NCBI GenBank assembly: GCA_000004985.1
Contig: GG738867.1
Source: Naegleria gruberi
Lineage: Eukaryota
Strand: one strand, 5' to 3'
DNA: 64,000 nt
Shown here in pieces: positions 15,599 through 64,000 of the stretch. Below the pieces are notes generated by a model, which saw only the letters and a list, made by a program, of their open reading frames with translations, had not been told where the DNA came from and did not search any database. The translations under genes and the position numbers were made by a program. Within the stretch, counting starts at the first letter, position 1; each line of letters starts with the position of its first letter.

Positions 15599-15679
15599 GC
15601 GGTCTTGACCGAGTGGTTAAGGTGATTGACTAGAAATCAATTGGGGAGACCCGCACAGGTTCGAGTCCTGTAGATCGCG
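15599..15679 (+). tRNA. tRNA-Ser (anticodon AGA), long variable arm
   Basis: The cloverleaf is: acceptor GCGGTCT/AGATCGC (one G-U pair), D-arm ACC-GAGTGGTTAA-GGT, anticodon stem ATTGA/TCAAT, loop CTAGAAA (U33, anticodon A34-G35-A36), a 15 nt variable arm, T-arm ACAGG-TTCGAGT-CCTGT, and discriminator G73. A TTTTTT run lies 5 nt downstream. Confidence 0.85.
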
Positions 15680-45874: not shown

Positions 45875-45947
45875 GGGGATGTAGCTCACATGGTAGAGCG
45901 CTTCTTTAGCATGGAAGAGGTACGGGGATCGATACCCCGCATCTCCA
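45875..45947 (+). tRNA. tRNA-Ala (anticodon AGC)
   Basis: The sequence is GGGGATGTAGCTCACATGGTAGAGCGCTTCTTTAGCATGGAAGAGGTACGGGGATCGATACCCCGCATCTCCA. The G3:U70 Ala identity pair is present. The anticodon loop is TTAGCAT and the discriminator is A. A TTTT run lies about 7 nt downstream. ORF 45890..46078 is spurious. Confidence 0.85.
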
Positions 45948-49299: not shown

Positions 49300-51300
49300 T
49301 TAATATTGAACATATATTGGAGTATTAATTACTGGAGAGGATTGAACACTTTGAGTATTAATGTTTTGAGAAGTTGAAAAAATTGTTGATTTCTTTGGTT
49401 TGGCTGATGTGTGCTTTTTTGGTTGCTTTGATACTGGTTTTACAGTTGAAGTTGGAACGCAACGATGGACTGGCTTAGTTCCTCTTGGCTTTGGAGTTCT
49501 AACAGAGAGTAAATCAGAAGTTACTACATGTTTAACTGTTGGCTTTGGAGTTAAAGCAGGTATAACAGTTGGTTTTACAGAAACTGACTCAGATGGCTTT
49601 GTTGGATTGGTGGTAAGAACATTTTGGGAAGGTCTATTTCTTGGTCCATTGACTGGTTCTGAAATTGATTCAACTGTTGGCTTGATATATGAAATAACTG
49701 GTTTAACTGTTGACTTCGGAACTGTTGGAGTTGCTGTTGGCTTTGGAACTGAGCTACTATTTGGTTTTGGGTTTTACGCTAACTGGTTTAGTTGGTGTTG
49801 AATCAGGTTTAATTGAGTCAATGGTTTGCCCTCTGTTGGTTTAGAAACAGATTTAGGAGTCTTGATATCTGGAATAACTGGCTTATTGGTTGGTTTACCT
49901 GTTGGCTTTGAGGTTGCAGGTTTAATTGTTGGTTTTACAGAAGCTGACACAGATGGCTTGGTAACTACTGGTTTAACTTCAACAGGCTTTGGAGATTGGT
50001 TTAACTGTTGGCTTAACAACTACTGGTTTGACTGTTCCTCTTGGCTTTACATCTGTTTGTTTGATTGGATTTGCAGAGGAAACTGATGATACTGGCTTTG
50101 GGGTTGATACTGGTTTAACTTCAACAGGCTTTGGCTTTGAGATTGGCTTGACTGATGTGGGAGTGGAATCAGGTTTAGTTGTTGGCTTAACTGGTTTAGT
50201 TGACACAGGGTTGGTTGGGGCAGTTGTTGGTTTAGTAGAAGTTGGTTTTACAAAGCCATAAGATTTTGTTGGCTTTGTAACAAGTGTGAAATCTGCTGGG
50301 TTAGCCGATACACCATCTGTTGGTTTGACTGTTGGCTTAATAGATACTGGTTTCGTTGGTTTCATTGTTGGCTTAGTACCTGGTTTTTCAACTACAGTTG
50401 GTCTTTCACTATTGAGTAATTGAGTTGGCTTGTGTGCCGTTGGTTTTGGTGTTGGAACTGAGCTACTATTTGGTCTAGTAACAATTACTGGTTTAACTGG
50501 TTTTGGAGTTGCAGAATGTCTAACAGAGAGCAAATCAGAAGGCTTACTTGTTGGTTTAACTGTTGGCTTTGGAACTGTTGGAGTTGCTACAGGGTTAACT
50601 GTTGGTTTTACAGAAACTAACTCAGATAGCTTGGTAACAACTACTGGTTTAACTTCAACAGGTTTGGAGATTGGTTTAACTGTTGGCTTAACAACTGGTT
50701 TGACTGTTCCTCTTGGCTTTACAATGGAAACTGATGATACTGGTTTTGGAGTGGAAGCTGGTGGTTTTCCAACAGTTGGTTTAGTTGGTTTTACGCTAAC
50801 TGGTTTAGTTGGTGTTGAATCAGGTTTAATTGAAGTCAACTCTGTTGGTTTAGAAACAGATTTAGGAGTCTTGATATCTGGAATAACTGGCTTAACTCCG
50901 TTATTGGTTGGTTTAACTGTTGGCTTTGGTGTTGCAGGTTTAATTGTTGGTTTTACAGAAACTGACTCAGATGGCTTGGTAATAACTACTGGTTTGACTT
51001 CAACAGGCTTTGAGATTGGTTTAACTGTTGGCTTTGGAGTTGATACTTGTTTAACCTCAACAGGTTTTGGGCTAGAGGTGAAAGTAGCAACACTGACCGG
51101 TTTAGTTGTTGGCTTAACCGGTACAGGTTTTGTTAGTACTGGAGAAGGCTTTACATCTGGAACTACTGTTGGTGATTTAACTGGGTTTGATGGTTTAACT
51201 GTTGGTGTTGGAACAGGTTTAACAGAAACTGACCTGACAGTGAATGAGTTTGGTTTTGTAGTTGGTGATGAATTTGCTTTTGGTGGTTCAATCTTAACAA
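49300..51300 (-). repeat. Mucin-like tandem repeat array (~150-170 nt units), with at least two frame disruptions in its 3' part
   Basis: Repeat units continue after the stop at 49979..49981 in a -1 frame (ORF 49774..50019) and then in a third frame to the stop at about 49300. One inserted G is visible at about 49985 (aaagcctgttgaagtt versus aaacctgttgaagtt in other units). Plus-strand ORFs 49400..51422 are antisense artefacts. Confidence 0.6.
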
Positions 51301-52492
51301 TGGCCTTATTATCAATAATTTTATCCAATGTAGATAGTAACTTATTGGTTGATAAGGTGTTCAAAGCACTGGCAACCTTCTTTTCACTTGCAGGTGTAAC
51401 ATCTTGCTTCTTTGCTTCTTGAACAGCGGCTTTAGAAACAATTTTAACTAAATCCTTCTTATCCATTTGTGAAATGGCTTCCTTGGCAACTTCCTTACTT
51501 GACACCTTTTCCATTTTCTGCAATTTAAGCATACTCTTGGCAAAACTTGAAGCATTATCTGGATTGATCAACGCATCCACGTAACATGACTTGAAATCGT
51601 TTGGATGATCCTTTTCAGAGATACCTGCCTTAGCACACGCTTTGCGAGCTTGTTCTTTTTCCTTTGAAGTTGCTTCTTTAAGTTCAGCATTAACACTTGA
51701 TGATTTGATCAAGGCAACCCTCTTCATTGGTTTGGCAAAGTAACTTTCCTTTGGAACACCCATGGTGGAGCTTACACAATAACCATAGTTGATATCAAGA
51801 GTTGCAGGAGCTTCAAAGGAAATATCGATATAATTACCTTGTTTGTAAACACTCCAACCATTCATATTAATAATTGCTCCAGAACTACTCTTAATTACAA
51901 TATTTGGACCAAATTTAAGAACATTATATGTAACTGAGGCACCCTTAGAAGTCAATGAAATTGTTTTTCCAGAAGGGATAGTTTGTTTTACACCATTAAT
52001 AAGAAAATATTGACCGTTAGCATGATATTCCAAAACTGATTCTTCATCGAGTGTCATTGCAATAGCAATATTACCAGAAACATGTCTTAATTTACCGGTA
52101 CGAGCTTGAGCCATGATGGACTTGTCAGCTGCTTCAGCCAAAACATATTCACCAATTGAATAGTAATCAAATGTTTTGCCTGTAAAAGTTCTCAAGTGAG
52201 GATCTCCTGTTGAATGACATTTCTATACCAATTCAAATAGTTTGATAATAATACATGTAATTGGGTGCCAACAACAAGAACACACATGAAAGATGATATA
52301 ACATGCAGATATAAACAATCTTCAATATTTCATAATACCTACATTAACAACAGCCCTAATGATGGCATTGGCATTGATAACAGCAGTAGGCTTGCTACGG
52401 CGACGAGCTTCAACCTCTGATGTAAGCATCATACTGAGCAATAGAAGCAACAGCAAGGATGCAACCATCAATTGAGAGTACTGTCTCTTCAT
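49979..52492 (-). CDS. Secreted mucin-like protein: signal peptide exon (52492..52343), VWD domain, long Thr/Pro/Lys/Val-rich repeat region; 120 nt intron 52223..52342 (GTAGGT donor)
   Basis: Exon 1 encodes MKRQYSQLMVASLLLLLLLSMMLTSEVEA…AVVN. Exon 2 begins KCHSTGDPHLRTFTGKTFDYYSIGEYVLAEA, which is the VWD hallmark GDPH…TFDG…Y. The repeats are KPVEVKPVV(T)TKPSESVSVKPTIKPATPKPTVKPT. The frame breaks at about 49980 and the repeats continue in other frames down to about 49300. Confidence 0.65.
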
Positions 52493-52793: not shown

Positions 52794-52874
52794 CGCAGAC
52801 TGCAGGATTCGAACCTACGAAGGTTTCCCCAACAGATTTCAAGTCTGTCGCCTTAACCACTCGGCCAAGTCTGC
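52794..52874 (-). tRNA. tRNA-Ser (anticodon TGA), long variable arm
   Basis: The minus-strand sequence is GCAGACTTGGCCGAGTGGTTAAGGCGACAGACTTGAAATCTGTTGGGGAAACCTTCGTAGGTTCGAATCCTGCAGTCTGCG. The acceptor stem is perfect, the anticodon loop is CTTGAAA and the discriminator is G. An oligo-T run lies about 8 nt downstream on the minus strand. ORF 52706..52897 is spurious. Confidence 0.85.
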
Positions 52875-54075
52875 TACGATTATTACAAAATCAATAGTTT
52901 CTAGCTCGGTATCTCAAATTGCTCTGTTCCACCTAGGTTCAACAAGTTTACTATATAATCTATATAATCGTGTGCACCTTTCATTTTGCTACCAATCCAA
53001 AGATGGATGCAGGCAATCAAAGCAGACTATTCCACCATTCTTTGAAAACAGCAAAATTCAAAATCTAAAGAATCTTCCTTAATTAATAAATACAATAAAT
53101 TATTAAAACAAGATGTTGTATAGCTTCTACACTTTGAAAGAAGAAGATCCAATAAGTAAGAATTGTTATATTGTTCTTAAAGAAGGCGTATTAACATTGC
53201 TACTGGTTCAACCTTGCTAAAACCACAATATATTAATATTTTCCAAGGCACTTCCGAGTTTACTAATACATCACTCATATCCAGTTATTTCCAAACAGTT
53301 CTTGTCCAGGGATTTTACGTTGTTATTGATCGTCACTGTGAAACACGTAATTGCTGATTGCGATCTGCCCTTTTCTACCCGTTTTCTTGCTTGCGAAAGA
53401 GTTTGAGAAAACAATTTTTGAACTCTGAAAGCACTTCAGAGCAATACTTAATAGAAATATTCAAAATACGATAACTAATTGTAATGAGAGTTTCAGAAAT
53501 TGAAAATCCGAAACAATACAAAGATAAAGAAGAATAACTCACTTTCTGAATCAAATCAAGTGCCAAGCTTGATATCCAAAATAATCCATTTTGTTAAGTT
53601 TGACCTTCTTGGCAAAGATCAATAAACCAGCTACTACCTCCAAGCATGATTACAAGAACTCTACACTAATAATAGCTTATAATCATCTACAGTTGTTCTT
53701 CCATCTCAGATACTTGGTTCTAAAACAACATGACATGAAATTCTCATCAACTACAGTCTGTCATCTTTGTAATCAATAGCAACAGTTCATTTTATCTTCC
53801 ACGTTTAGAACCACCATGCCATTTAACGAAAATACGAAACAGTTTTTTATTCCTTTCAGTAATGGCCTTATTTTGATTGTTATCCAAGCTTGATAGGTTG
53901 TTGCCAAAAACGCTTCGGTTATTAACATCCAAAATCTCACAGAACCTCCCAAATGGCAAAAGTTACCTCTACATGGATGTTTTCAACTTCACATTTTACC
54001 GTCAATCAAAGATATTTCACACTCGCTCATCCACTACGAGGTCACAAAAATTTATCAGAAAAAACAAAAACAAAT

Positions 54076-55764
54076 ATGAGACAAACAGTTGTGTTTAGTG
54101 TTGTGGTATTGATTGCCACTCTCTGTCTGACGGTTGGCTTTGTTCATTCAAAGGCAATTGACAGTTTCTCCCTGTTCAAACTCTTCACACCAGTCTATGA
54201 GAATTGTTACTCTCACGATGGTGTCAATGTAAATAAGAAACACGTTACTTGGGGACGTACAGGTGAATCACTTCCACGTTTAACTAAGGCTGCCTATACT
54301 GATGGTGTTAAAGATCCACCACGTTTGACTTTGAGTGCTAGAGTTATTTCTAATGCTTTCAGTAAGCAAACTACCTGTGATGAATCTAATGATTTCAATG
54401 ATAGTTCAATGATTTATGCGTATGGTCAATTTGTGGATCATGATATTTCCAATGAAGGAGCTGGTTTAAAGTTTACTGAAACTTTAAATATTGAAGTACC
54501 TCCTGGTGATGTTTGGACAACTGCTCTTCCATTCACCAGAGCTGTCTTTGCCTCTGACAAGCCAACTTATGTTAATGAGCCAGTCAATCAAGTGAACTTT
54601 GTTACTGGTTATATGGATTGTAGTCAAATCTATGGTTCTGATGAGATTCGTGCTGATGCTCTTCGTGAAAAAGTTGGTGGTTTCTTAAAGGCTGATGTCC
54701 AATATGGAAAGGAATTTTTGCCAAAGAGTTTTGTTGATCCAAAGAGTGGATTATTCTTCATTGGAACGGTCAACAATTCTGTAATAGCTGGAGACAATAG
54801 AGCAACTGAAGCCCTTCCAATCTCAATCATGCAAACTTTAATGTTGAGAGAGCATAACAGATTGGCAAAATTAGTAGCTTCCAGATTTGGAGTATCTCAA
54901 CAACAACTTTCAAACTCAAGAGCTGATGAATGGATTTATCAAACTGCTCGTACCATTAACTGTGCTCAAATCCAACACATTACATACAATGAATATTTGC
55001 CAAGAATTTTGGGTAAATTCGCTCCAAAACCAAAAGACTTGTGTTATGATGAAGAAGTCAAGACAACTGTTACTACAGAATTTGCCACTGCTGCTTTTAG
55101 ATTTGGCCACAGTACTGTTGGGTGTGATATGAAGAGATTCACTGGTAATGGTAGTGAACTAGCTCCAATTGACTTTGGTAATGCTTTCAATGCTTATCCA
55201 GTTTTAACTCAATCTGCTGAAGAATTGGATAATTTGTTGAGAGGTCTCATCAAGCATCACGCTCAAAACTTGGATGAAAAGGTTGTTGATGGTTTACGTC
55301 AAGTTATCAGAGGTCGTTTGGATCTTGTTGCCAGAAACATTCAAAGAGGTAGAGATGTTGGTCTTCCAGATTACAATACCATTAGAACTACCCTCGGTTT
55401 CCCAGCTCTCAACGTTACTCAAATCACATCTCGTGCTGATGTTCAAGCCAAGTTAATCTCATTCTGGGGTGTCAATTTGGTTGGTTTGGAACCATGGTTG
55501 GGAATTCTCCTCGAACAAAAGGTTGAAAACTCTCAATTGGGTGAATTAGGTACTCACTTACTCAAGACTCAATTTGAAAACTTTGTAAAGGGAGATAACT
55601 GTTTCTACTCTCACAATCCTCAAACATGGGCTCGTTCCTTGTTCAAGAAGGAAATTGAAAAGGTTACTCTTGCTGATATCATTGATGCTAATACTGGTGT
55701 TAAGAAGGGTGAAAAGTCTATGGGTACTTCTCCATTCGTTGCCAAGTATGGTCCATTGGTTTAA
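54076..55764 (+). CDS. Secreted animal-type heme peroxidase (peroxinectin/peroxidasin family)
   Basis: The signal peptide is MRQTVVFSVVVLIATLCLTVGFVHS. The mature region resembles the heme peroxidase superfamily (…GQFVDHDIS…, …RDVGLPDYNTIR…, …RFGHSTVG…, …GDNCFYSHNPQ…). The ORF-track start at 53953 is upstream of the likely start at 54076 (caaatATG). Confidence 0.75.
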   Translation: MRQTVVFSVVVLIATLCLTVGFVHSKAIDSFSLFKLFTPVYENCYSHDGVNVNKKHVTWGRTGESLPRLTKAAYTDGVKDPPRLTLSARVISNAFSKQTTCDESNDFNDSSMIYAYGQFVDHDISNEGAGLKFTETLNIEVPPGDVWTTALPFTRAVFASDKPTYVNEPVNQVNFVTGYMDCSQIYGSDEIRADALREKVGGFLKADVQYGKEFLPKSFVDPKSGLFFIGTVNNSVIAGDNRATEALPISIMQTLMLREHNRLAKLVASRFGVSQQQLSNSRADEWIYQTARTINCAQIQHITYNEYLPRILGKFAPKPKDLCYDEEVKTTVTTEFATAAFRFGHSTVGCDMKRFTGNGSELAPIDFGNAFNAYPVLTQSAEELDNLLRGLIKHHAQNLDEKVVDGLRQVIRGRLDLVARNIQRGRDVGLPDYNTIRTTLGFPALNVTQITSRADVQAKLISFWGVNLVGLEPWLGILLEQKVENSQLGELGTHLLKTQFENFVKGDNCFYSHNPQTWARSLFKKEIEKVTLADIIDANTGVKKGEKSMGTSPFVAKYGPLV

Positions 55765-56105: not shown

Positions 56106-56240
56106 AACCAAATTTAAGAGAGAGGAATTTATCACCTATATTTATTGGGCTTAGACCGTTCATTAATGTCATAAAAATTGTGGTACATTTTATATGAAAA
56201 TAGTATTCATTCTACTTGGGATTGAAACATAGAAATAAAA

Positions 56241-56359
56241 GACTACAACACCACAGGTTCCCAAGTTGTCTCCAACCTCAGTACTGATGTGGCTCGACGA
56301 TGCTTAACTTCTCAAATCGGACGGGATGAGGTGCATTCATCGTGATATGGCCGTAGCCA
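56241..56359 (-). rRNA. 5S ribosomal RNA
   Basis: The minus strand reads (T)GGCTACGGCCATATCACGATGAATGCACCTCATCCCGTCCGATTTGAGAAGTTAAGCATCGTCGAGCCACATCAGTACTGAGGTTGGAGACAACTTGGGAACCTGTGGTGTTGTAGTC. It matches the eukaryotic 5S consensus in the loop A/B region, helix I pairs GGCTACGGC/GTTGTAGTC, and TTTTATTT lies immediately 3'. Confidence 0.8.
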
Positions 56360-56474: not shown

Positions 56475-58052
56475 TCAATAGTAATCTTCATCTGGTTTCG
56501 CATATTTTCCTGCGAGGGTGATGATTTCTGGATCTTGTTTAAGCTCAGAATCCAACATTTTGAAAACACACCCATTCTCTTTCACAGCTATCAAAGCCAG
56601 TTCTCTATCGTTCTTCAATTCTTTAGGAATATTGCTAAATACATGTCCACAATTCGAGAGAGCAATCTTTACAATTTCTAGATCTGCTTTGAATCCATCT
56701 GGAATTCTTGGGTATGCATATCCATATTTTGAGAGTAATTTCATGATAGATTCACGGTCATTTAAGAATAGATCTGCCAAATCACAACGGGTAATCAAAT
56801 AGCCATGTTCAACAGCAATCTCTTTCAATTTTTGTTTAAAATTCTCAGATTCTGAATAGTCCTCTCTGTAATAACCCATCATTGAAATAGGATTCTTCAA
56901 AATAGCCCTCAACCACAGTTCTTCATCTTTAGCCAAGCTTTCGAAATAACCATGCACCAAAATCAATGGATTAATATCAATTAATTCCTTAATGAATTCC
57001 CGGTCAGATTCAATAGAATTTGTATCTATGTTTTGAATATTTGTTGGATTACTTTCGATTAACATTTTGATAATGTCCCTATCAGCAGACAAGGAGCTAT
57101 GGATACAGCGAGCTAAATCAGAGCCAATTTGGAATGCTTCCATAAAAACTTTCTTTGAACTTGTAAGTTTTTCATTAAGAGAGCTGAAGAATGATCCAAA
57201 AGATTCACATCTTGGTGTCTCTGTTGAAAATAAACTGGATTTGAGTAGATTATTATAGGCTTTAGGACCTCCATTCATAATACATTTGAACACATCGAGG
57301 TAAATAGATGAAAACTCGTTTCTTTCAAATGCTTTTTCCAATCGAGGTAAGATAACTCGTGTATCAAAATTCTTTTGTCCATGTTCTTGTGTGATAAATT
57401 CCACAATCTCAAATACCATCTCTTTTTCAAACTCATTTCTTCCTATACATAATTCGTCTGATATTTCTAACAACCTATCAGCATCTTGTTCATCATCACA
57501 ATTACTCAACAAATCGGTCGATCCAAATATTAAATCAATTCTTTTTGATTTTCTATCAAATCTTTCAACACTAACTTCAGGTCTATTGCACTTTCTCTGA
57601 TGATTTGGTTTTTTGAAGAAATCATCTAATTTCTTCATCATTCCCAAATATTGATAAATAATTTGCAATATAATTCCATCGGTCACTTCAATTTTAATTT
57701 GGGATAATCTTTCTCTCAACACACAATTCATCACAACACAATAGGAATCATTGGTGCCACCATCACATGCCTGATAAATATTATCTCTGGTCGGTAAGAG
57801 CATCGTTAGAGGCGATTGCAATCCTTGATAATAGCAGCTGCTTTCTAAATTCATTGGTGCTAGTGATGACAAGGATTTTAATATACAGACAAATTGTTGA
57901 TTTCTCATTCGGAGAGCAATTATTCTCTCGTATTGTTGTTGCTGATTGGCAATCATAACATGATTTGGAAGCTTTTTAATTATTCTAAAATCTTCTTGGT
58001 TGTTGGAGGTGGAATTTAAGAGTTTGATGATTGATCGCTTTGATTGTTCCAT
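56475..58052 (-). CDS. DUF4116-repeat protein (paralogous in repeat type to 45960..47603)
   Basis: The C-terminal third contains …ADLEIVKIALSNCGHVFSNIPKELKNDRELALIAVKENGCVFKMLDSELKQDPEIITLA…. The start is placed at the ATG in aaaaaaaATG context (58052); an upstream in-frame ATG lies at 58133. Confidence 0.55.
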   Translation of the reverse strand: MEQSKRSIIKLLNSTSNNQEDFRIIKKLPNHVMIANQQQQYERIIALRMRNQQFVCILKSLSSLAPMNLESSCYYQGLQSPLTMLLPTRDNIYQACDGGTNDSYCVVMNCVLRERLSQIKIEVTDGIILQIIYQYLGMMKKLDDFFKKPNHQRKCNRPEVSVERFDRKSKRIDLIFGSTDLLSNCDDEQDADRLLEISDELCIGRNEFEKEMVFEIVEFITQEHGQKNFDTRVILPRLEKAFERNEFSSIYLDVFKCIMNGGPKAYNNLLKSSLFSTETPRCESFGSFFSSLNEKLTSSKKVFMEAFQIGSDLARCIHSSLSADRDIIKMLIESNPTNIQNIDTNSIESDREFIKELIDINPLILVHGYFESLAKDEELWLRAILKNPISMMGYYREDYSESENFKQKLKEIAVEHGYLITRCDLADLFLNDRESIMKLLSKYGYAYPRIPDGFKADLEIVKIALSNCGHVFSNIPKELKNDRELALIAVKENGCVFKMLDSELKQDPEIITLAGKYAKPDEDYY

Positions 58053-58203
58053 TTTTTTTAATTGTTTACAATAATTACATCTTGATTTAAGATTGTGTAA
58101 TATATTGCATTTTCCTATTAAATTATATTTCATTAATAAAATCTTTTTGACCCAAATTCAAATTTCTGACCGTTACATAACAATTTGAAAAAAAAGTCGC
58201 AAA

Positions 58204-59307
58204 ATGGAAACACCAAATAGTCATCATCTTGGTGATGAAGCATCCACTCTCATGATGATGAATACTCCACAATTTCTCAACTATGTCTCCACCAATACAT
58301 CATCCTCTCAAGATATGTTATCGAGTCCGATTGCCTCTAATCGATTTCATCCTTCCTCATCATTATCAACAATAGAACAACAACAGCAAGCAAATACAAC
58401 CTCATCAATTAACAATAATAACAAATCATCTACAATGATGAATATGGCCCTAACCATGCTCCTTCTCTCGCCCAGTAAGCAGAATTCACTTCTCCACACT
58501 CCTACCAAATCAAATTCTCTCACCATTGATGCTTCCCGTATTAATCATGACAATGAAATGCTGTTTTCATCACCATTGAGTGCAATGATGATGGACACAC
58601 CACGTGGTAACTCGTCGAATGTGAATGGTGTGAGGAGAACTTTGGATTTTGATGAATCGATGGATAATTTTGAAGAAGTTTCCCTTTCAGAACCGAATCA
58701 ACCTATTGCTGTGATAAAGAATACGTATTCACAGGAATTGGTTGAGAAGATTGGTTTGGAATCGAATATTGCTTCTAATTTTGGAGAGTCACTGTTTGTG
58801 AGCTATTTCCATAGAATGATGTCTTTGTTGTTGGCCGTGCTGCTCTTTCCAACCAAAATGATGAATAAGGAAATACAGAGTCCTGTTATTCCTGTTGAAA
58901 GAAACGTCAACACTCATAATATTAAGTATCAAGAGGAGAATCCAATGTTAGAGCATTTTATTGGTAAGATGGATAATCAACAAAAAAGAATTGATGAACT
59001 GGAAACAATTATCAAGAAAATGAGTTCTCAAATTGAAGATCTGATAAATTCAAAGGTAGAATTGGAGAAACGAATCGGTAATGTAGAAGAAACACAAAAG
59101 GAAATTCCATCACAACCTGAATCAGTCGATTCACTAATTGTCAATCCTCAAGTAGAAATACCAGAGGAGAAGGATAGCAATACCAATCTATCTAACAATT
59201 CAACTTGTGCAGATTTGGATAGTGTTCCAAAACAACCAATCGAATCTAATTCAGCTTTAATATTTATTGTGCTTCCAATTATGATGGCTATCATCTCCAT
59301 ACTGTAA
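58204..59307 (+). CDS. Tail-anchored coiled-coil membrane protein, unknown function
   Basis: The ORF is 367 aa, with an S/T/N-rich N-terminus and a coiled-coil (…KRIDELETIIKKMSSQIEDLINSKVELEKRIGNVEE…). It has a single C-terminal TM helix (ALIFIVLPIMMAIISIL) as its last residues. Confidence 0.5.
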   Translation: METPNSHHLGDEASTLMMMNTPQFLNYVSTNTSSSQDMLSSPIASNRFHPSSSLSTIEQQQQANTTSSINNNNKSSTMMNMALTMLLLSPSKQNSLLHTPTKSNSLTIDASRINHDNEMLFSSPLSAMMMDTPRGNSSNVNGVRRTLDFDESMDNFEEVSLSEPNQPIAVIKNTYSQELVEKIGLESNIASNFGESLFVSYFHRMMSLLLAVLLFPTKMMNKEIQSPVIPVERNVNTHNIKYQEENPMLEHFIGKMDNQQKRIDELETIIKKMSSQIEDLINSKVELEKRIGNVEETQKEIPSQPESVDSLIVNPQVEIPEEKDSNTNLSNNSTCADLDSVPKQPIESNSALIFIVLPIMMAIISIL

Positions 59308-59351: not shown

Positions 59352-62300
59352 TCAGTAAATGGAAAGATTCAAAGTCGAGTTGGAGTTGTTGTATCGTGAA
59401 AGTAGATCTATCCATTCCTTCTGCGTATCGAAAGTAATCCATTCATTCTCTTCATCCAAATAATAGTATCTCAAGCTGGAACAGTCCTTTTTGGTCCTTT
59501 CTGAAATAATATTTGCCAAGTCATTCAAGCCAATAATGGATCCACTGGTAGGCAAAATTTAAACATATCCTTATTTTTGTATTTCTTCAATCTAACTTTG
59601 ATATTAATCACCTTATTCAATTCTTGTTTTGGTGATTTGAGTAGTTTTTCATTTTCATAGGTTTCAATACCTTCAAGCCAGTCACGTAATTTAGGTGAGA
59701 ATATGCTTAACTCCATCAGATCAGTAATCTTATCCCAATCAAGATTAGAGTCGAGAGCAACAGCACCAATCAATGCCTCCATCACATCTGAAATAGATTT
59801 GGCTTTAAGTTTCAGATCTTTCTTTACAAACAACAGTTGATCAATTCTAAAGTCTTTGGCTATCTTTTCCAATGCTGTATTTCTTACAAAATTGGAACGG
59901 AACGTGTGCATTTCACTCTGGTCCAGATAAAAATTATGGAACATTGTTCGAGAAACATATAAATCCAAGACAGCATCGCCAACGAATTCCAGAGTTTCAT
60001 AATTCACATTAAAACCAATATCAACAGAGGGGTGAATTAATGTGTAGTATGCATATAGAATATTTTTGAATTTGTATCCAATAATTCGTTCCAATTCTTT
60101 AGCATTTTTCTCAATGTCTGGTATTGTGTTTTCAATGATACGCTTGACATATTCTGGATTTGAATTCAATATAAATTTGTCAGCAATAAAATTCTGCTTT
60201 TTGACCAGTTTCAAATCTCTAGCCAATTTTACACCTTCTTCAATACTGTGTTTACCAACGAGACCAATTAAACTTTCAATTATATCAGCACGTACTTTTT
60301 TGCCTTTCACAGAAGCTTCCTGTTCGCTTTTAGAGAAAGCAATACCAGCCACATTGTGATGATAGTACTGAGTTTCGATAAAGAAGTCCATAATAGATAA
60401 TTTTTGGGCCAACTTCCTCAAATTGGAGTTTGAAACTTTGGCAGTCTTTTCCTCATTATAAAATTTCATATTCTCGAATGGAAATCTCAGAACTATATCC
60501 AAAACAACAGCATATTTCAATATAGTATCACCAAAAAATTCGTATCTTTCATAGTTAGTATCCAGATTCTGACTAGTTCTGTGCGTTATTGCATTTCTTA
60601 ACTCTGACAAGTTAATATAACCACAACTTGGAAACATTTGATTTTTCAAATCGTGGGCTACAAGGGTCTGCTCTACTAAACTCATCAATGTTCCTTCATT
60701 GGACGTCTTAAATACTGCTCTTAGGGATTCGATAAAATCTATCCTTAAACTAGTTGGTTTGCAGAATTCTGGTATCAACATGACATATCTGTGGTACTTG
60801 AGAGAATATGCAGATAACATTGGTTGATTTGAATCACACATAATTTCATATCTATCCTTCAAATAGCTTTGGTAAGTTATAGTAGATCCTTGTTTCTCAA
60901 AAGATTCTAAGGGTGTAGAACTCTCATCAATATAATTTGGAGCATAAAAATCCTTATTATATGTGGTTACAATAAAATAATCGATCGGTACCCTCACTCC
61001 TAATCTCAAATGATCTAATATAGTCATTGACTGGGGATAATCTTTCTCACTCTGGGATAACTCTTTTTCGAATGTATATATCACATTCCAATCTATGACA
61101 TCCCTTGGTTGGTTTCCTCTACAAGAAGGAAGTACCAAGTAGAATCTTCCATCTCCATAAAAATAATCTTTAAGAGCATAATTATTGTAAATAATTCTAC
61201 ATAATCTCATGTAAAATGCAATCAATTTTTCATATTCAGACTTGGTTACTGTTATGAATCCACAAGGGAAAAGTTTCAGCCATAAAGGATGCATAGTCAC
61301 TTCAAACGGATATTGAATCTCTCCAAAAGTCAAAAGAGCAGTCATTTCTTCCTTTCCGTTGCTATTGATTATCATTTGACTAACAAATAATTTGACATTA
61401 TTGTTGTCTTTAGGCCCCTCATATCTAATTGGCTTTGGAATGTATGTATCTTTCTTCTCTATCTCTTCGTCATCTGAAAGATTCTCTATTGAAGAAATGA
61501 GTGGTTCAATATCCTCTTGTGTATCATTTGTAATAATAACCTTCTCAGATTTAATATATTCTTTTAGCTCCTCCAAGGCAGTATCTACAATGATGCTTCG
61601 CTCATTGTTACCCATATTGGTTAACATGATGATTTGGGAATAATCATCCTTATCATAAAGTACTACATATCTTGAAAGTTCGTGCCTCGCTCTACCCATA
61701 GACTGGATATGTTCTCTAGTTGTGTTGCAAATATCAAATTGAACCACTAAAGAGCATTTGGAAATGTTCAGACCCTCTTCTCCGGCTTTTGTAGCTACGA
61801 GAAGTCGAGTAGTGTGTGAAAATTCCTTCACTACAGTTGCTTGAGCTTGTCGAGACATAACTGAACTTCCTATCAACTCTTTACAATTTAGAGGTATAAA
61901 CTTTCTATACATTCTAAACATTTTTACAATTGCCTTTACATGAACAATTCGCTCAGCAAATATGATACATCTCATATTTTCGTTTGTATTTTCATATGTA
62001 TCGACTAAATCAAATAGAATTTTGACCTTATCTGAAATGAAAGGTGAAGAATTAATTTCATTCATACTTGAAAACTCAATTGGTTGATTCAAGTTAAAAA
62101 TTGGATAAAATGATTTGAAAGACTCAAAAACATCCAACTCACATATTAGTGAAATAATTATAAGACTTCCAATCAAACCTAATTCACGATAATTCTTCTC
62201 TATATCATCAACTGATATATCTCTAAAATTATGATATGAATGAAACGTTTTCAATGCATTCAATGGCTCTATCAACTCACTCTTAGATGAATAAGCTACG

Positions 62301-63169
62301 CTATGTTGTCTCGGGTTGTTGACATGTTTTTTCATCTCTTCCATGTAATCATAAGGTACTTTGATGGAAGCATCAAGGCTAAATTCTAATTTGGCCTTTC
62401 TCAAAAATAAGGTATGTTCATTAAGACTTGTCTTGTAGAGAGATTGAGAAGCCGGTGTCGCAGTAAGACCTAAAATTTTAGGAAGCTCAATTGGTTGTCT
62501 ATCTTTAAGGAAATTGAAATTATATGCTAATAGTGAAGGATCAATAGGCTTGTTGTTGTGATAATAATCTCTCATCAATTTAACATAGGGATGATCCTTA
62601 GTAGCATGGTGAGCCTCATCAAAAACCAATAACAAGATATCTTCAAAAGAAATTATTTGACTCTGAAGAGCATTCAACAATATTTGAGGAGTGCTCACAA
62701 TAACATTCCAAGATTTGCTCGAATCAATTGTAAAGTCCTTCTTAATTTTCATTTTGCTACATTCCCTTTTGTAGAAATATTTGAAAATAGCCTCCTGTTG
62801 TTGTTTCCTCAATGCAGTCGTTGGAACCAAGAAGAATATCTTCTTTGTTAGTTTCTTCTTATCAGGTGGTCCATTAGTTGGTGGTTTCTTCTGATCAGAA
62901 ATGCAACATGAACACTTTGAGGATAAAAAGTATTCATCTCCCATATATTCCTTTTTATCATTTTGATGTAATAATTGATCAATTAAAAGACAGGCTAGAA
63001 GTGTTTTTCCTGTACCTGTTGGTAGAATACAAATTGAGTTTCCATCGATTGATTCCCGAAGCAATTCCAATTGATAGGCTCTCGGTTTTTCAATGGTAAT
63101 AATTGTATTATTATTCGAATCATTAGTATTATCACCTGTTTGTGTCGACAGTGATGGTTGAGAAAGCAT
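59352..63169 (-). CDS. Dicer-like protein: DExH helicase + HELICc + two RNase III domains, followed by a PB1-like domain that is split by a frameshift at ~59525-59555
   Basis: The helicase carries ILPTGTGKTLLA and FDEAHHA, plus HELICc (…LVATKAGEEGLNISKCSLVVQFD…SMGRARH). RNase IIIa has ERYEFFGDTILKYAVV and RNase IIIb has ETLEFVGDAVLDLYVS. The main frame ends …INIKVRLKKYKNKDMFKFCLPVDPLLA* at 59525. The overlapping -1 frame (59352..59555) continues …SIIGLNDLANIISERTKK…LRYYYLDEENEWITFDTQKEWIDLL. Together these read as a PB1 domain (Lys-containing beta1-beta2 plus an OPCA-like acidic motif). The ORF-track start at 63211 is a TTG; the first ATG is at 63169. Confidence 0.75.
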
Positions 63170-63404
63170 CGTTTTACTTGTTGAACAATTTTTAGGCTTT
63201 GAATAATGCAATTCTAATATTGTTGGCCAAGTGTTCGGAATAATTTAACATTTAACTCTTTCTACATTCAATATATTTAGAAATTATTTAACACAATTAA
63301 TTGGTGATTCATATTCGGGGAGTAGTTCTTCTCCCTGCAAGGTACAGCCTTCTTGTTTAACAACACAATTTTTAAAAAGAATTAAAAATCAAATTTTAAA
63401 TAAA

Positions 63405-63833
63405 AATGCCACCAACAACAGTATTGGAACCACTTGATTTAATTAGACTATCATTGGATGAACAGGTTTATATTAAACTGAAGGGAGATCGTGAATTGCG
63501 AGGAACTTTACATGTAGGTGATCTTTTTTAAATATTTACAAATTTTTATTATTATCGGAATAATTATGATGACAATATAATTGCGATGACGATGATGGGT
63601 ATTAATAGGCTTACGATCAACATTTAAATATGGTCCTCGGAAATGTCGAAGAAACTATACATGAAATTGACATTGATAAGGAAACAAACGAACAACAAAT
63701 GAAGGTTTGTATTTCAAATCATTTCACATCAACAAATTTGATTTCTAAAGAGTACTACTCGTAAAATTGGAATGCTATTCTTGAGAGGAGATGGTGTGAT
63801 ATTAGTTGTCAATTCTGCTCTTCGTTCTCTTTA
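63405..63833 (+). CDS. LSM3: Sm-like protein LSm3; 3 exons (63405..63512, 63608..63703, 63750..63833)
   Basis: The spliced product is [36 protein letters not shown]|[32 protein letters not shown]|[27 protein letters not shown], which is near-identical in pattern to LSm3 ([45 protein letters not shown]…). Introns are 95 nt (gtaggt…taatag) and 46 nt (gtttgt…ctaaag). Confidence 0.85.
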
Positions 63834-64000
63834 AATATTCATGTAAAAACTCCAACATTTTCAACTAGTTCTGGATTGTGTATTATTATGAGGCCAGGCT
63901 GCAAATTCACAACATCAAAAAGGCTTGTTTTAACTTCCAGAAATTCTTGTTGTTTATTTTTGTTCAAACTTCACCTTCTTATTTTCATTATTTGACGTTG

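What the first reader, a model, noticed from the sequence alone, without database searches (positions are those of the whole stretch)
59352..59600. Dicer-like gene carries a C-terminal PB1-like domain that is broken by a 1-nt frameshift
The helicase/RNase III ORF ends 30 nt into a second ORF that is shifted by one nucleotide. Read together, the two parts form a PB1 domain: IKVRLKKYKNKDMFKFCLPVD…SIIGLNDLANIISERTKK…YYLDEENEWITFDTQKEWIDLL. A PB1 protein-interaction module on a Dicer would be an undescribed architecture. Its interruption means one of three things: an assembly indel, a very recent pseudogenising mutation of the tail only, or an alternative that excludes the PB1 helix alpha1. In the third case a phase-compatible GTGGAT…aaaaAG 60 nt intron would skip the SIIGLNDLANIISERTKK segment.
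Basis: seen in the sequence. Interest (0 to 1): 0.65.

Follow-up and report, generated by a model that had tools for sequence, protein, structure and literature searches.

The report
Naegleria Dicer with frameshift-split PB1 tail
The Dicer gene of the amoeba Naegleria gruberi ends in a PB1 protein-binding domain, which I found described for no other Dicer; the domain is intact in two sister species but is cut in two here by a single missing base, which is either a sequencing error or a very recent mutation.

Summary
The window is Naegleria gruberi. The minus-strand ORF 59525..63169 is the annotated Dicer NAEGRDRAFT_48963, with helicase, PAZ and two RNase III domains. It stops at 59525-59527, inside a second open frame (59352..59558) that lies one base out of register.

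That second frame alone passes Pfam's PB1 cut-off (26.6 bits against 23.6). Inserting one base anywhere in 59525-59560 gives 26.8-30.1 bits and extends the match to profile positions 5-79 of 84.

No GT-AG intron restores the domain, no in-phase slippery site or downstream RNA structure supports programmed frameshifting, and ORF2 has no ATG. The break is therefore a one-base indel. The tools here cannot tell an assembly error from a recent or allelic mutation.

No paper found describes a Dicer-PB1 fusion. It is a new domain architecture of a known enzyme, restricted so far to Naegleria.

The parts
59525..63169 (-). Dicer coding sequence as annotated (NAEGRDRAFT_48963, 1214 aa from the first ATG), read in frame A and ending at TGA 59527-59525
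   Evidence: ORF list. 100% identity to P0001. Coordinates.
62444..63088 (-). N-terminal DExD/H helicase core (ResIII/DEAD)
   Evidence: Pfam ResIII 66.8 bits and DEAD 59 bits, residues 42-256 of the 1228-codon ORF.
61688..62029 (-). Helicase C-terminal domain
   Evidence: Pfam Helicase_C 58.2 bits, residues 395-508.
60707..60973 (-). PAZ domain
   Evidence: Pfam PAZ 36.1 bits against a 28.8 cut-off, residues 747-835.
60254..60556 (-). RNase IIIa domain (signature NYERYEFFGDTILKY ... ADIIESLIGLVG)
   Evidence: Two Ribonuclease_3 stretches in Pfam. Motifs located.
59750..60004 (-). RNase IIIb domain (signature NYETLEFVGDAVLDL ... SDVMEALIGAVALD)
   Evidence: Best Pfam Ribonuclease_3 stretch, residues 1072-1155. 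Motifs located.
59609..59698 (-). Short linker between RNase IIIb and the PB1 domain (SPKLRDWLEGIETYENEKLLKSPKQELNKV)
   Evidence: Its start aligns with the orthologues, whose linkers are about 40-50 residues longer.
59540..59608 (-). PB1 strands beta1-beta2, still in frame A (INIKVRLKKYKNKDMFKFCLPVD); contains the beta1 lysine
   Evidence: Adding this piece extends the Pfam PB1 match to profile position 5 and adds up to 3.5 bits. It corresponds to strands E9-19 and E23-32 of the N. fowleri model. Sequence conservation here is weak: 3-5 identities in 32 columns.
59528..59558 (-). Interval where frames A and B are both open; the missing base must lie here. It includes the short runs AAA and TTTT at its upstream edge
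   Evidence: Inserting one base at any position in 59525-59560 gives a continuous reading frame ending ...LNLSIY*. All seven junction variants tested pass the PB1 cut-off.
59355..59540 (-). PB1 alpha1-beta3-beta4-alpha2-beta5 in frame B (SIIGLNDLANIISE...YYYLDEENEWITFDTQKEWIDLL...TLNLSIY); contains the acidic OPCA-like motif. The stop codon is at 59352-59354
   Evidence: Pfam PB1 26.6 bits on its own. 39-44% identity to the orthologue tails. The best PDB sequence match is the NBR1 PB1 domain across the shared YLDEENE. There is no methionine in this frame, so it cannot be a separate gene.

Best explanation
The Dicer of the genus Naegleria ends in a PB1 domain, a ubiquitin-like protein-protein interaction module, where most Dicers have a double-stranded-RNA-binding domain. 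In this N. gruberi sequence one base is missing somewhere in 59528-59558, in the loop between strand beta2 and helix alpha1. As a result the annotated protein stops after beta2, and the remaining two thirds of the domain lie in the -1 frame as an orphan ORF.

The lesion is a plain one-base indel. It is not an intron, not programmed frameshifting and not a second gene. I think a consensus error in the draft assembly is somewhat more likely (about 55%) than a genuine very recent or allele-specific mutation in the sequenced laboratory strain (about 35%).

Inferred, not shown: the intact domain keeps both an acidic OPCA-like motif (Y-L-D-E/Q-E/D-N-E/D-W) and a lysine in beta1. It could therefore pair head-to-tail with itself or with another PB1 protein, concentrating Dicer or tethering it to a partner.
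For: Identity of the gene:
- The window ORF is 100% identical to N. gruberi NAEGRDRAFT_48963.
- Pfam finds ResIII/DEAD, Helicase_C, PAZ and two RNase III domains.

The tail is a PB1 domain:
- ORF2 scores 26.6 bits and the fused readings 26.8-30.1 bits, against a cut-off of 23.6. No family competes except one 12.3-bit hit below its cut-off in a single junction variant.
- The best PDB sequence match is the NBR1 PB1 domain, with an identical YLDEENE.
- The AlphaFold model of the N. fowleri tail has the order b-b-a-b-b-a-b.

The fusion is ancestral and continuous:
- The N. fowleri gene (3999 nt, in three separate assemblies) and the N. lovaniensis gene (3972 nt) are single ORFs running through the tail.
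- tblastx places the N. fowleri tail in one frame opposite window frames A and B.

The tail is selected as coding sequence:
- dN/dS between N. fowleri and N. lovaniensis is 0.155 for the tail and 0.113 for its core, against 0.146 for the whole gene.

The break is a one-base indel:
- Inserting any single base in 59525-59560 restores the frame.
- ORF2 shows no other lesion and ends where the orthologues end.
Against: - No independent N. gruberi read, transcript or assembly could be reached. The split between error and real mutation therefore rests on general expectation only.
- The orthologue tails do not hit Pfam PB1 themselves.
- A profile of the three tails finds no PB1 protein by sequence, either in the PDB or in 1.84 billion representatives.
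- The beta1-beta2 piece is poorly conserved between N. gruberi and the other two species.
- PB1-PB1 binding is inferred from motifs only.
Confidence: 0.8

Rival explanations
1. The frameshift is real in the sequenced N. gruberi strain, either fixed or on one haplotype. That strain then makes a Dicer lacking most of its PB1 domain: a very recent loss of the tail only, which leaves the catalytic enzyme intact.
For: - The annotated protein and the window agree on the stop codon.
- The truncation removes no catalytic domain, so it could be tolerated.
- The sequenced strain is a long-cultured axenic laboratory line reported to be heterozygous (my own knowledge of the 2010 genome paper, not checked here).
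- Nothing found here contradicts this reading.
Against: - ORF2 shows no decay at all. It has 68 open codons (chance about 1.5%), keeps its conserved motifs and ends at the orthologous position. Any such mutation would therefore have to be extremely recent.
- The tail is under purifying selection in the sister species.
Confidence: 0.35
2. A short intron joins frame A to frame B. The mature protein would then have a PB1-like tail without helix alpha1.
For: - The GT-AG pair exists, is 59 nt long and joins the frames without a stop.
- Two genuine introns in the LSm gene of this window are 46 and 95 nt long and end in AAG or TAG. The length and the 3' end are therefore plausible.
Against: - The 'intron' is open in frame B and encodes SIIGLNDLANIISERTKK. 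This aligns with SLFTLNEMPKIILSTSP of the orthologues, which have no intron there.
- The spliced product scores 17.3 bits for PB1, below the cut-off.
- Every one of the 20 GT-AG combinations that join the two frames removes a strand or helix of the domain. The only one that keeps alpha1 is 20 nt long and removes beta2.
- GTGGAT is unlike the two real donor sites seen in this window, GTAGGT and GTTTGT.
Confidence: 0.04
3. Programmed -1 ribosomal frameshifting, or transcript slippage or editing, produces full-length Dicer-PB1 from the sequence as it stands. This would give two isoforms, with and without the PB1 domain.
For: - The change from frame A to frame B is in the -1 direction.
- The overlap starts at TTTAAATTTT.
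Against: - No X XXY YYZ heptamer lies in phase with frame A inside 59528-59558. TTTAAAT is read as TTT|AAA|T, and A AAT TTT is in phase only with the third frame (read).
- The 131 nt from the junction onward fold no better than shuffles: z +0.78, and 160 of 200 shuffles fold at least as well.
- The orthologues encode the domain in a single frame.
- The runs of 3-4 identical bases are too short for known transcriptional slippage (established knowledge).
Confidence: 0.02

Closest known systems
Canonical eukaryotic Dicer (human DICER1, Drosophila Dcr-2, plant DCL1-4, fungal Dcl1/2)
   Same: The N-terminal DExD/H helicase plus Helicase_C, PAZ, and tandem RNase IIIa and IIIb with the E-F-x-G-D signatures are all present in the same order. 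The best non-Naegleria relatives are fungal and plant Dicer-like proteins.
   Different: There is no Pfam hit to the Dicer dimerisation/DUF283 domain (PF03368) or to a C-terminal dsRBD (PF00035), although most listed homologues have the first and many have the second. A PB1 domain occupies the C-terminus instead. None of the 120 listed homologues carries PF00564.
PB1 domains of p62/SQSTM1, NBR1, atypical PKC, Par6, MEK5/MEKK3, Cdc24/Bem1 and p40/p67phox
   Same: It shares the beta-grasp order b-b-a-b-b-a-b, and these domains are its best structural matches. The N. gruberi copy is above the Pfam cut-off. It has an acidic OPCA-like stretch, YLDEENEW, whose first seven residues are identical to NBR1's YLDEENE. 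A lysine sits in beta1 of all three species (IKV/LKV), as in the PB1 domains that pair head-to-tail.
   Different: It is attached to an RNase III enzyme rather than to a kinase, an adaptor or an autophagy receptor. The G of the D-x-D/E-G-D motif is N here. The N. fowleri and N. lovaniensis copies are too divergent for the Pfam model. No partner is known, and neither binding nor polymerisation has been tested.
Genes split by single-base indels in draft eukaryotic assemblies
   Same: Two adjacent ORFs one base out of register together match a single domain that is continuous in the orthologues, and the downstream piece shows no other damage.
   Different: Here the split also hid a domain architecture. 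The annotated N. gruberi protein stops before the part of the domain that can be recognised, and the two intact orthologues are too divergent for Pfam to detect, so no database entry flags a PB1 domain.

Membership tests
PB1 domain (Pfam PF00564) | Sequence match to the family model above the curated cut-off | tested here: met
   For N. gruberi, ORF2 alone scores 26.6 bits and the eight fused readings score 26.8-30.1 bits, against a cut-off of 23.6. The feature is NOT met by the N. fowleri and N. lovaniensis tails, which give no hit at E<=10.
PB1 domain (Pfam PF00564) | Ubiquitin-like beta-grasp fold with the order b1-b2-a1-b3-b4-a2-b5, closest to solved PB1 structures | tested here: met
PB1 domain (Pfam PF00564) | Acidic OPCA motif (type A face) | tested here: met
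   YYLDEENEWITFD in N. gruberi and YYLDQDNDWILFD in the orthologues. HMMER aligns it to the OPCA stretch of NBR1, YLDEENEEVSIN. The usual G is N, as it is in NBR1.
PB1 domain (Pfam PF00564) | Conserved lysine on strand beta1 (type B face) | tested here: inconclusive
   A lysine sits in an h-K-V-x-h pattern in all three species: INIKVRL, LVLKVFL and MLIKVFF.
PB1 domain (Pfam PF00564) | Front-to-back binding to another PB1 domain | not testable with these tools
   This needs binding experiments or complex modelling. No partner was identified. The tail profile finds no other protein in 1.84 billion representatives.
Dicer (class 3 RNase III) | Two tandem RNase III domains with catalytic signatures | tested here: met
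   Pfam Ribonuclease_3 scores 114.7 bits in two stretches. The signatures ERYEFFGD and ETLEFVGD were located.
Dicer (class 3 RNase III) | PAZ domain between the helicase and the RNase III pair | tested here: met
   Pfam PAZ 36.1 bits against a 28.8 cut-off, residues 747-835. It is also present in both orthologues.
Dicer (class 3 RNase III) | N-terminal DExD/H helicase with Helicase_C | tested here: met
   ResIII 66.8 bits, DEAD 59 bits and Helicase_C 58.2 bits.
Dicer (class 3 RNase III) | DUF283/Dicer dimerisation domain and C-terminal dsRBD (present in the canonical architecture, absent from several accepted Dicers) | tested here: not met
   None of the three Naegleria proteins hits PF03368 or PF00035. 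A divergent DUF283 fold cannot be excluded from sequence alone.
Programmed -1 ribosomal frameshift site | In-phase slippery heptamer X XXY YYZ followed by a stable RNA structure | tested here: not met
   No in-phase heptamer lies in 59528-59558 (read). The downstream 131 nt fold at z +0.78 relative to shuffles.
Spliceosomal intron | GT-AG boundaries that join the two frames and leave a product consistent with the orthologues | tested here: not met
Twenty GT-AG pairs join frame A to frame B, but every one deletes a conserved strand or helix. The orthologous genes have no intron.

The most novel reading that the evidence does not exclude
Naegleria Dicers use a two-faced PB1 domain, with both a lysine and an acidic motif, to polymerise head-to-tail or to dock onto a PB1 scaffold. 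RNA-silencing machinery would then be organised through a module otherwise known from autophagy receptors, polarity kinases and auxin factors. In addition, the standard laboratory strain of N. gruberi would truly have lost this tail, providing a natural separation-of-function allele: catalytically intact Dicer without its assembly domain.
Probability: 0.15. Interest if true: 0.6.

Novelty: new variant of a known kind. Interest (0 to 1): 0.42.

Why it matters
Dicer domain architecture is used to infer how small-RNA pathways evolved and how Dicers recognise substrates and partners. Naegleria is one of the few free-living excavate lineages included in such comparisons.

A conserved C-terminal PB1 domain in place of the usual dsRBD would mean that this lineage couples Dicer to partners, or to itself, by protein-protein pairing rather than through an RNA-binding tail.

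The fusion is currently invisible in databases, for two reasons. The reference N. gruberi protein is truncated by the frameshift, and the two intact orthologues are too divergent for Pfam. Reviews that draw the N. gruberi Dicer therefore show an incomplete protein.

There is also a practical consequence. The gene model NAEGRDRAFT_48963 should be re-checked, and anyone attempting RNAi in N. gruberi NEG-M should find out whether its Dicer really lacks this domain.

Tried and rejected
- **Independent N. gruberi sequence across the junction: none reachable.** A word-index search with the 133-aa fused tail returned nothing, not even the annotated protein. Exact look-ups of the annotated protein and of ORF2 found no record. 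The full-length search showed no N. gruberi fragment from any other assembly or transcriptome.
- **Metagenome scan with the RNase IIIb-plus-tail alignment.** It returned only two bacterial rnc genes.
- **Exhaustive HMMER search of 1.84 billion representatives with the tail profile.** It found only the Naegleria cluster, so no Dicer-PB1 outside the genus and no paralogue.
- **Profile of the three tails against PDB sequences.** It gave no PB1 hit, only a chance match at E 1.3.
- **Structure prediction of the fused N. gruberi tail.** The N. fowleri tail was modelled instead.
- **AlphaFold-database fold search.** The library was unavailable.
- **Intron hypothesis.** Rejected after enumerating all GT-AG joins.
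- **Programmed frameshifting.** Rejected on phase and on RNA folding.
- **ORF2 as an independent gene.** Rejected because there is no methionine in that frame and a frame-B stop lies immediately upstream.
- **Locating the missing base by PB1 score.** All junction variants score within 3.3 bits of each other, so this was uninformative.
- **Literature searches.** Searches for Naegleria plus Dicer, for PB1 domain plus Dicer and for the locus tag found no description of this tail.
Full report
**What is in the sequence**

The window is AT-rich (about 34% G+C) and comes from Naegleria gruberi. The long minus-strand ORF 59525..63211 is 100% identical to the annotated protein NAEGRDRAFT_48963, which is 1214 aa from the first ATG at 63169. 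Pfam finds a complete Dicer core:
- ResIII/DEAD helicase, 66.8 and 59 bits
- Helicase_C, 58.2 bits
- PAZ, 36.1 bits against a cut-off of 28.8
- two RNase III domains, 114.7 bits in two stretches

This frame (A) ends ...INIKVRLKKYKNKDMFKFCLPVDPLLA* at 59527-59525.

A second frame (B), one base out of register, opens right after a TAA at 59561-59559. It runs to a stop at 59354-59352 and reads ILPTSGSIIGLNDLANIISERTKKDCSSLRYYYLDEENEWITFDTQKEWIDLLSRYNNSNSTLNLSIY. The two frames are open together for about 31 nt.

**Is it more than chance, and is it PB1?**

- ORF2 alone passes the Pfam PB1 gathering score: 26.6 bits against 23.6, E 5.9e-06, profile positions 22-79 of 84.
- Inserting a single base anywhere in 59525-59560 gives one continuous frame.
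- The fused reading and seven further junction variants score 26.8-30.1 bits. The match then extends to profile position 5 in the best variants. No family competes except one 12.3-bit hit below its cut-off in a single variant.
- The frame-A tail alone gives nothing.
- The best PDB sequence match of the fused tail is the PB1 domain of NBR1. It aligns across the acidic motif with an identical YLDEENE. The match is weak on its own at E 0.14.
- A 68-codon open frame is expected about 1.5% of the time at the stop-codon frequency of this window.

**Orthologues**

The full-length search returned one orthologue each in N. lovaniensis (P0002, 1323 aa) and N. fowleri (P0003, 1332 aa), both 37-38% identical over 97% of the fused query.

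- Both proteins continue past RNase IIIb into a tail that aligns with both halves of the N. gruberi reading. IKVFF/LKVFL and RKFSL/RNFSL lie opposite the frame-A piece. SLFTLSEMPQVIL...MKWYYLDQDNDWILFDTQHEWEYLL...TLHLTLGV lies opposite ORF2.
- The genes are single ORFs with no intron: 3999 nt in N. fowleri and 3972 nt in N. lovaniensis. The N. fowleri protein is encoded identically in three separate assemblies, from NCBI, Logan and ENA.
- tblastx confirms that a single N. fowleri frame matches window frame A at 59648-59812 and frame B at 59397-59480.
- ORF2 is 39-44% identical to the orthologue tails, slightly above the gene-wide figure. The beta1-beta2 piece is only weakly conserved, with 3-5 identities in 32 columns.
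- Between N. fowleri and N. lovaniensis the tail has dN/dS 0.155, and its core 0.113, against 0.146 for the whole gene. This indicates purifying selection, although dS of about 1-1.5 is close to saturation.

**Fold**

The tool would not accept the conceptual N. gruberi fusion, so I modelled the N. fowleri tail with a three-row alignment. The model has moderate confidence (pLDDT 66, pTM 0.59). Its elements are in the order beta-beta-alpha-beta-beta-alpha-beta, plus one short helix in a low-confidence loop.

- The first 24 Foldseek hits are all PB1 domains, with E from 2e-4 and low TM-scores of 0.3-0.45.

Caveats:
- The orthologue tails do not hit Pfam PB1 themselves.
- A profile of the three tails finds no PB1 by sequence in the PDB.
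- The same profile finds nothing but the Naegleria cluster in 1.84 billion representatives.

The PB1 assignment therefore rests on three things: the N. gruberi sequence match, the homology among the three tails, and the fold of the N. fowleri copy.

**What the interruption is**

- *Separate gene.* ORF2 has no methionine and a stop codon lies immediately upstream of it in its own frame, so it is not a separate gene.
- *Intron.* I enumerated every GT-AG pair of 18-250 nt that joins frame A to the ORF2 ending. There are 20, and each deletes beta2, alpha1 or more. It removes alpha1, which is open and conserved in frame B, and it lowers the PB1 score to 17.3 bits, below the cut-off. The only join that keeps alpha1 is 20 nt long. 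The two genuine introns I could define in this window, in the LSm gene, are 95 and 46 nt, with donors GTAGGT and GTTTGT.
- *Programmed frameshifting.* The frame change is in the -1 direction, but no X XXY YYZ heptamer lies in phase with frame A in the overlap. The downstream RNA folds no better than shuffles, at z +0.78.

The simplest reading is one missing base in the beta2-alpha1 loop. PB1 scores do not pinpoint the position. The overlap begins with the short runs AAA and TTTT.

**Error or real mutation?**

I could not reach any second source of N. gruberi sequence. The only constraint is that ORF2 shows no decay, so any real mutation must be very recent or allelic.

From general expectation about draft Sanger consensus errors and about frameshift alleles in a cultured, heterozygous strain (my own knowledge, not tested), I put about 55% on an assembly error and about 35% on a real lesion. 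About 6% goes to the intron or recoding readings, and the small remainder is unassigned.

**How it probably works (inferred)**

PB1 domains pair front-to-back through an acidic OPCA motif on one domain and a beta1 lysine on the other. This is established for p62, NBR1, aPKC-Par6 and MEK5-MEKK.

The Naegleria tails keep Y-L-D-(E/Q)-(E/D)-N-(E/D)-W and a lysine in an h-K-V-x-h beta1 pattern in all three species. That alignment is a lead, not a test.

A domain with both faces could let Dicer self-associate or bind a PB1 partner. The three Naegleria Dicers have no Pfam dsRBD or DUF283 hit, so the PB1 domain sits where the C-terminal dsRBD usually is. No partner was identified.

**Comparison with what is known, and novelty**

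- None of the 120 best Dicer homologues lists PF00564.
- The 2023 EMBO Reports review of Dicer architecture includes the N. gruberi enzyme in its domain scheme and never mentions PB1.
- Full-text searches for 'PB1 domain' with 'Dicer', for Naegleria with Dicer and for the locus tag gave no description of such a fusion.

The architecture is hidden for two reasons: the reference protein is truncated, and the intact orthologues escape the Pfam model.

I rate it a new variant of a known kind. It is a lineage-specific domain added to a well-known enzyme, conserved across a deeply diverged genus, with an untested function. The frameshift itself is ordinary.

Noticed in passing
window 56240-56358 (-) and 53298-53439 (+): A 5S rRNA gene (102.8 bits) and a U4 spliceosomal snRNA gene (48.6 bits, just above the cut-off of 46) lie among the protein-coding genes next to the Dicer locus.
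   Followed up: no
window 15599-15679 (+), 45875-45947 (+), 52794-52874 (-): Three tRNA genes: Ser(aga), Ala(agc) and Ser(tga), found by both ARAGORN and Rfam.
   Followed up: no
window 63406-63835 (+): An LSm-family gene lies upstream of Dicer, syntenic with N. fowleri and N. lovaniensis. It has two short introns: 63514-63608 (95 nt, GTAGGT..TAG) and 63705-63750 (46 nt, GTTTGT..AAG). I used them as local examples of real Naegleria splice sites.
   Followed up: partly
window 58204-59307 (+): A 367-aa ORF with no convincing Pfam hit converges on the Dicer tail. Only 44 nt separate the two stop codons. It has weak similarity (23-25% identity, E 1e-3 to 3e-5) to the gene that follows Dicer on the SAME strand in N. 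fowleri and N. lovaniensis. This suggests a small local inversion next to the Dicer 3' end, or a spurious coiled-coil match.
   Followed up: partly
window 56475-58133 (-): A 552-aa protein with four DUF4116 repeats (111.9 bits).
   Followed up: no
window 49979-52195 (-): A 738-aa ORF whose C-terminal two thirds are Pro/Thr/Lys/Val-rich short repeats (KPTVKPISKPVEVKPV...) after a globular N-terminal part. It looks like a secreted or surface protein.
   Followed up: no
window 53953-55764 (+); L001 11117-11999: An animal-type haem peroxidase gene is syntenic with An_peroxidase downstream of Dicer in N. fowleri, at 70-77% identity in tblastx segments.
   Followed up: no
P0003 (N. fowleri FDP41_013091) against the literature: A 2026 review lists the N. 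fowleri Dicer candidate NfTy_057690 as 1524 aa (PMC13315211). The orthologue found here is 1332 aa in three assemblies. This is either a different gene model or a second Dicer-like gene.
   Followed up: no
(tool behaviour): The word-index protein search with the 133-aa fused tail did not even return the annotated N. gruberi protein, which shares 71 identical residues with the query. Negative results of that tool for short queries should not be trusted.
   Followed up: no
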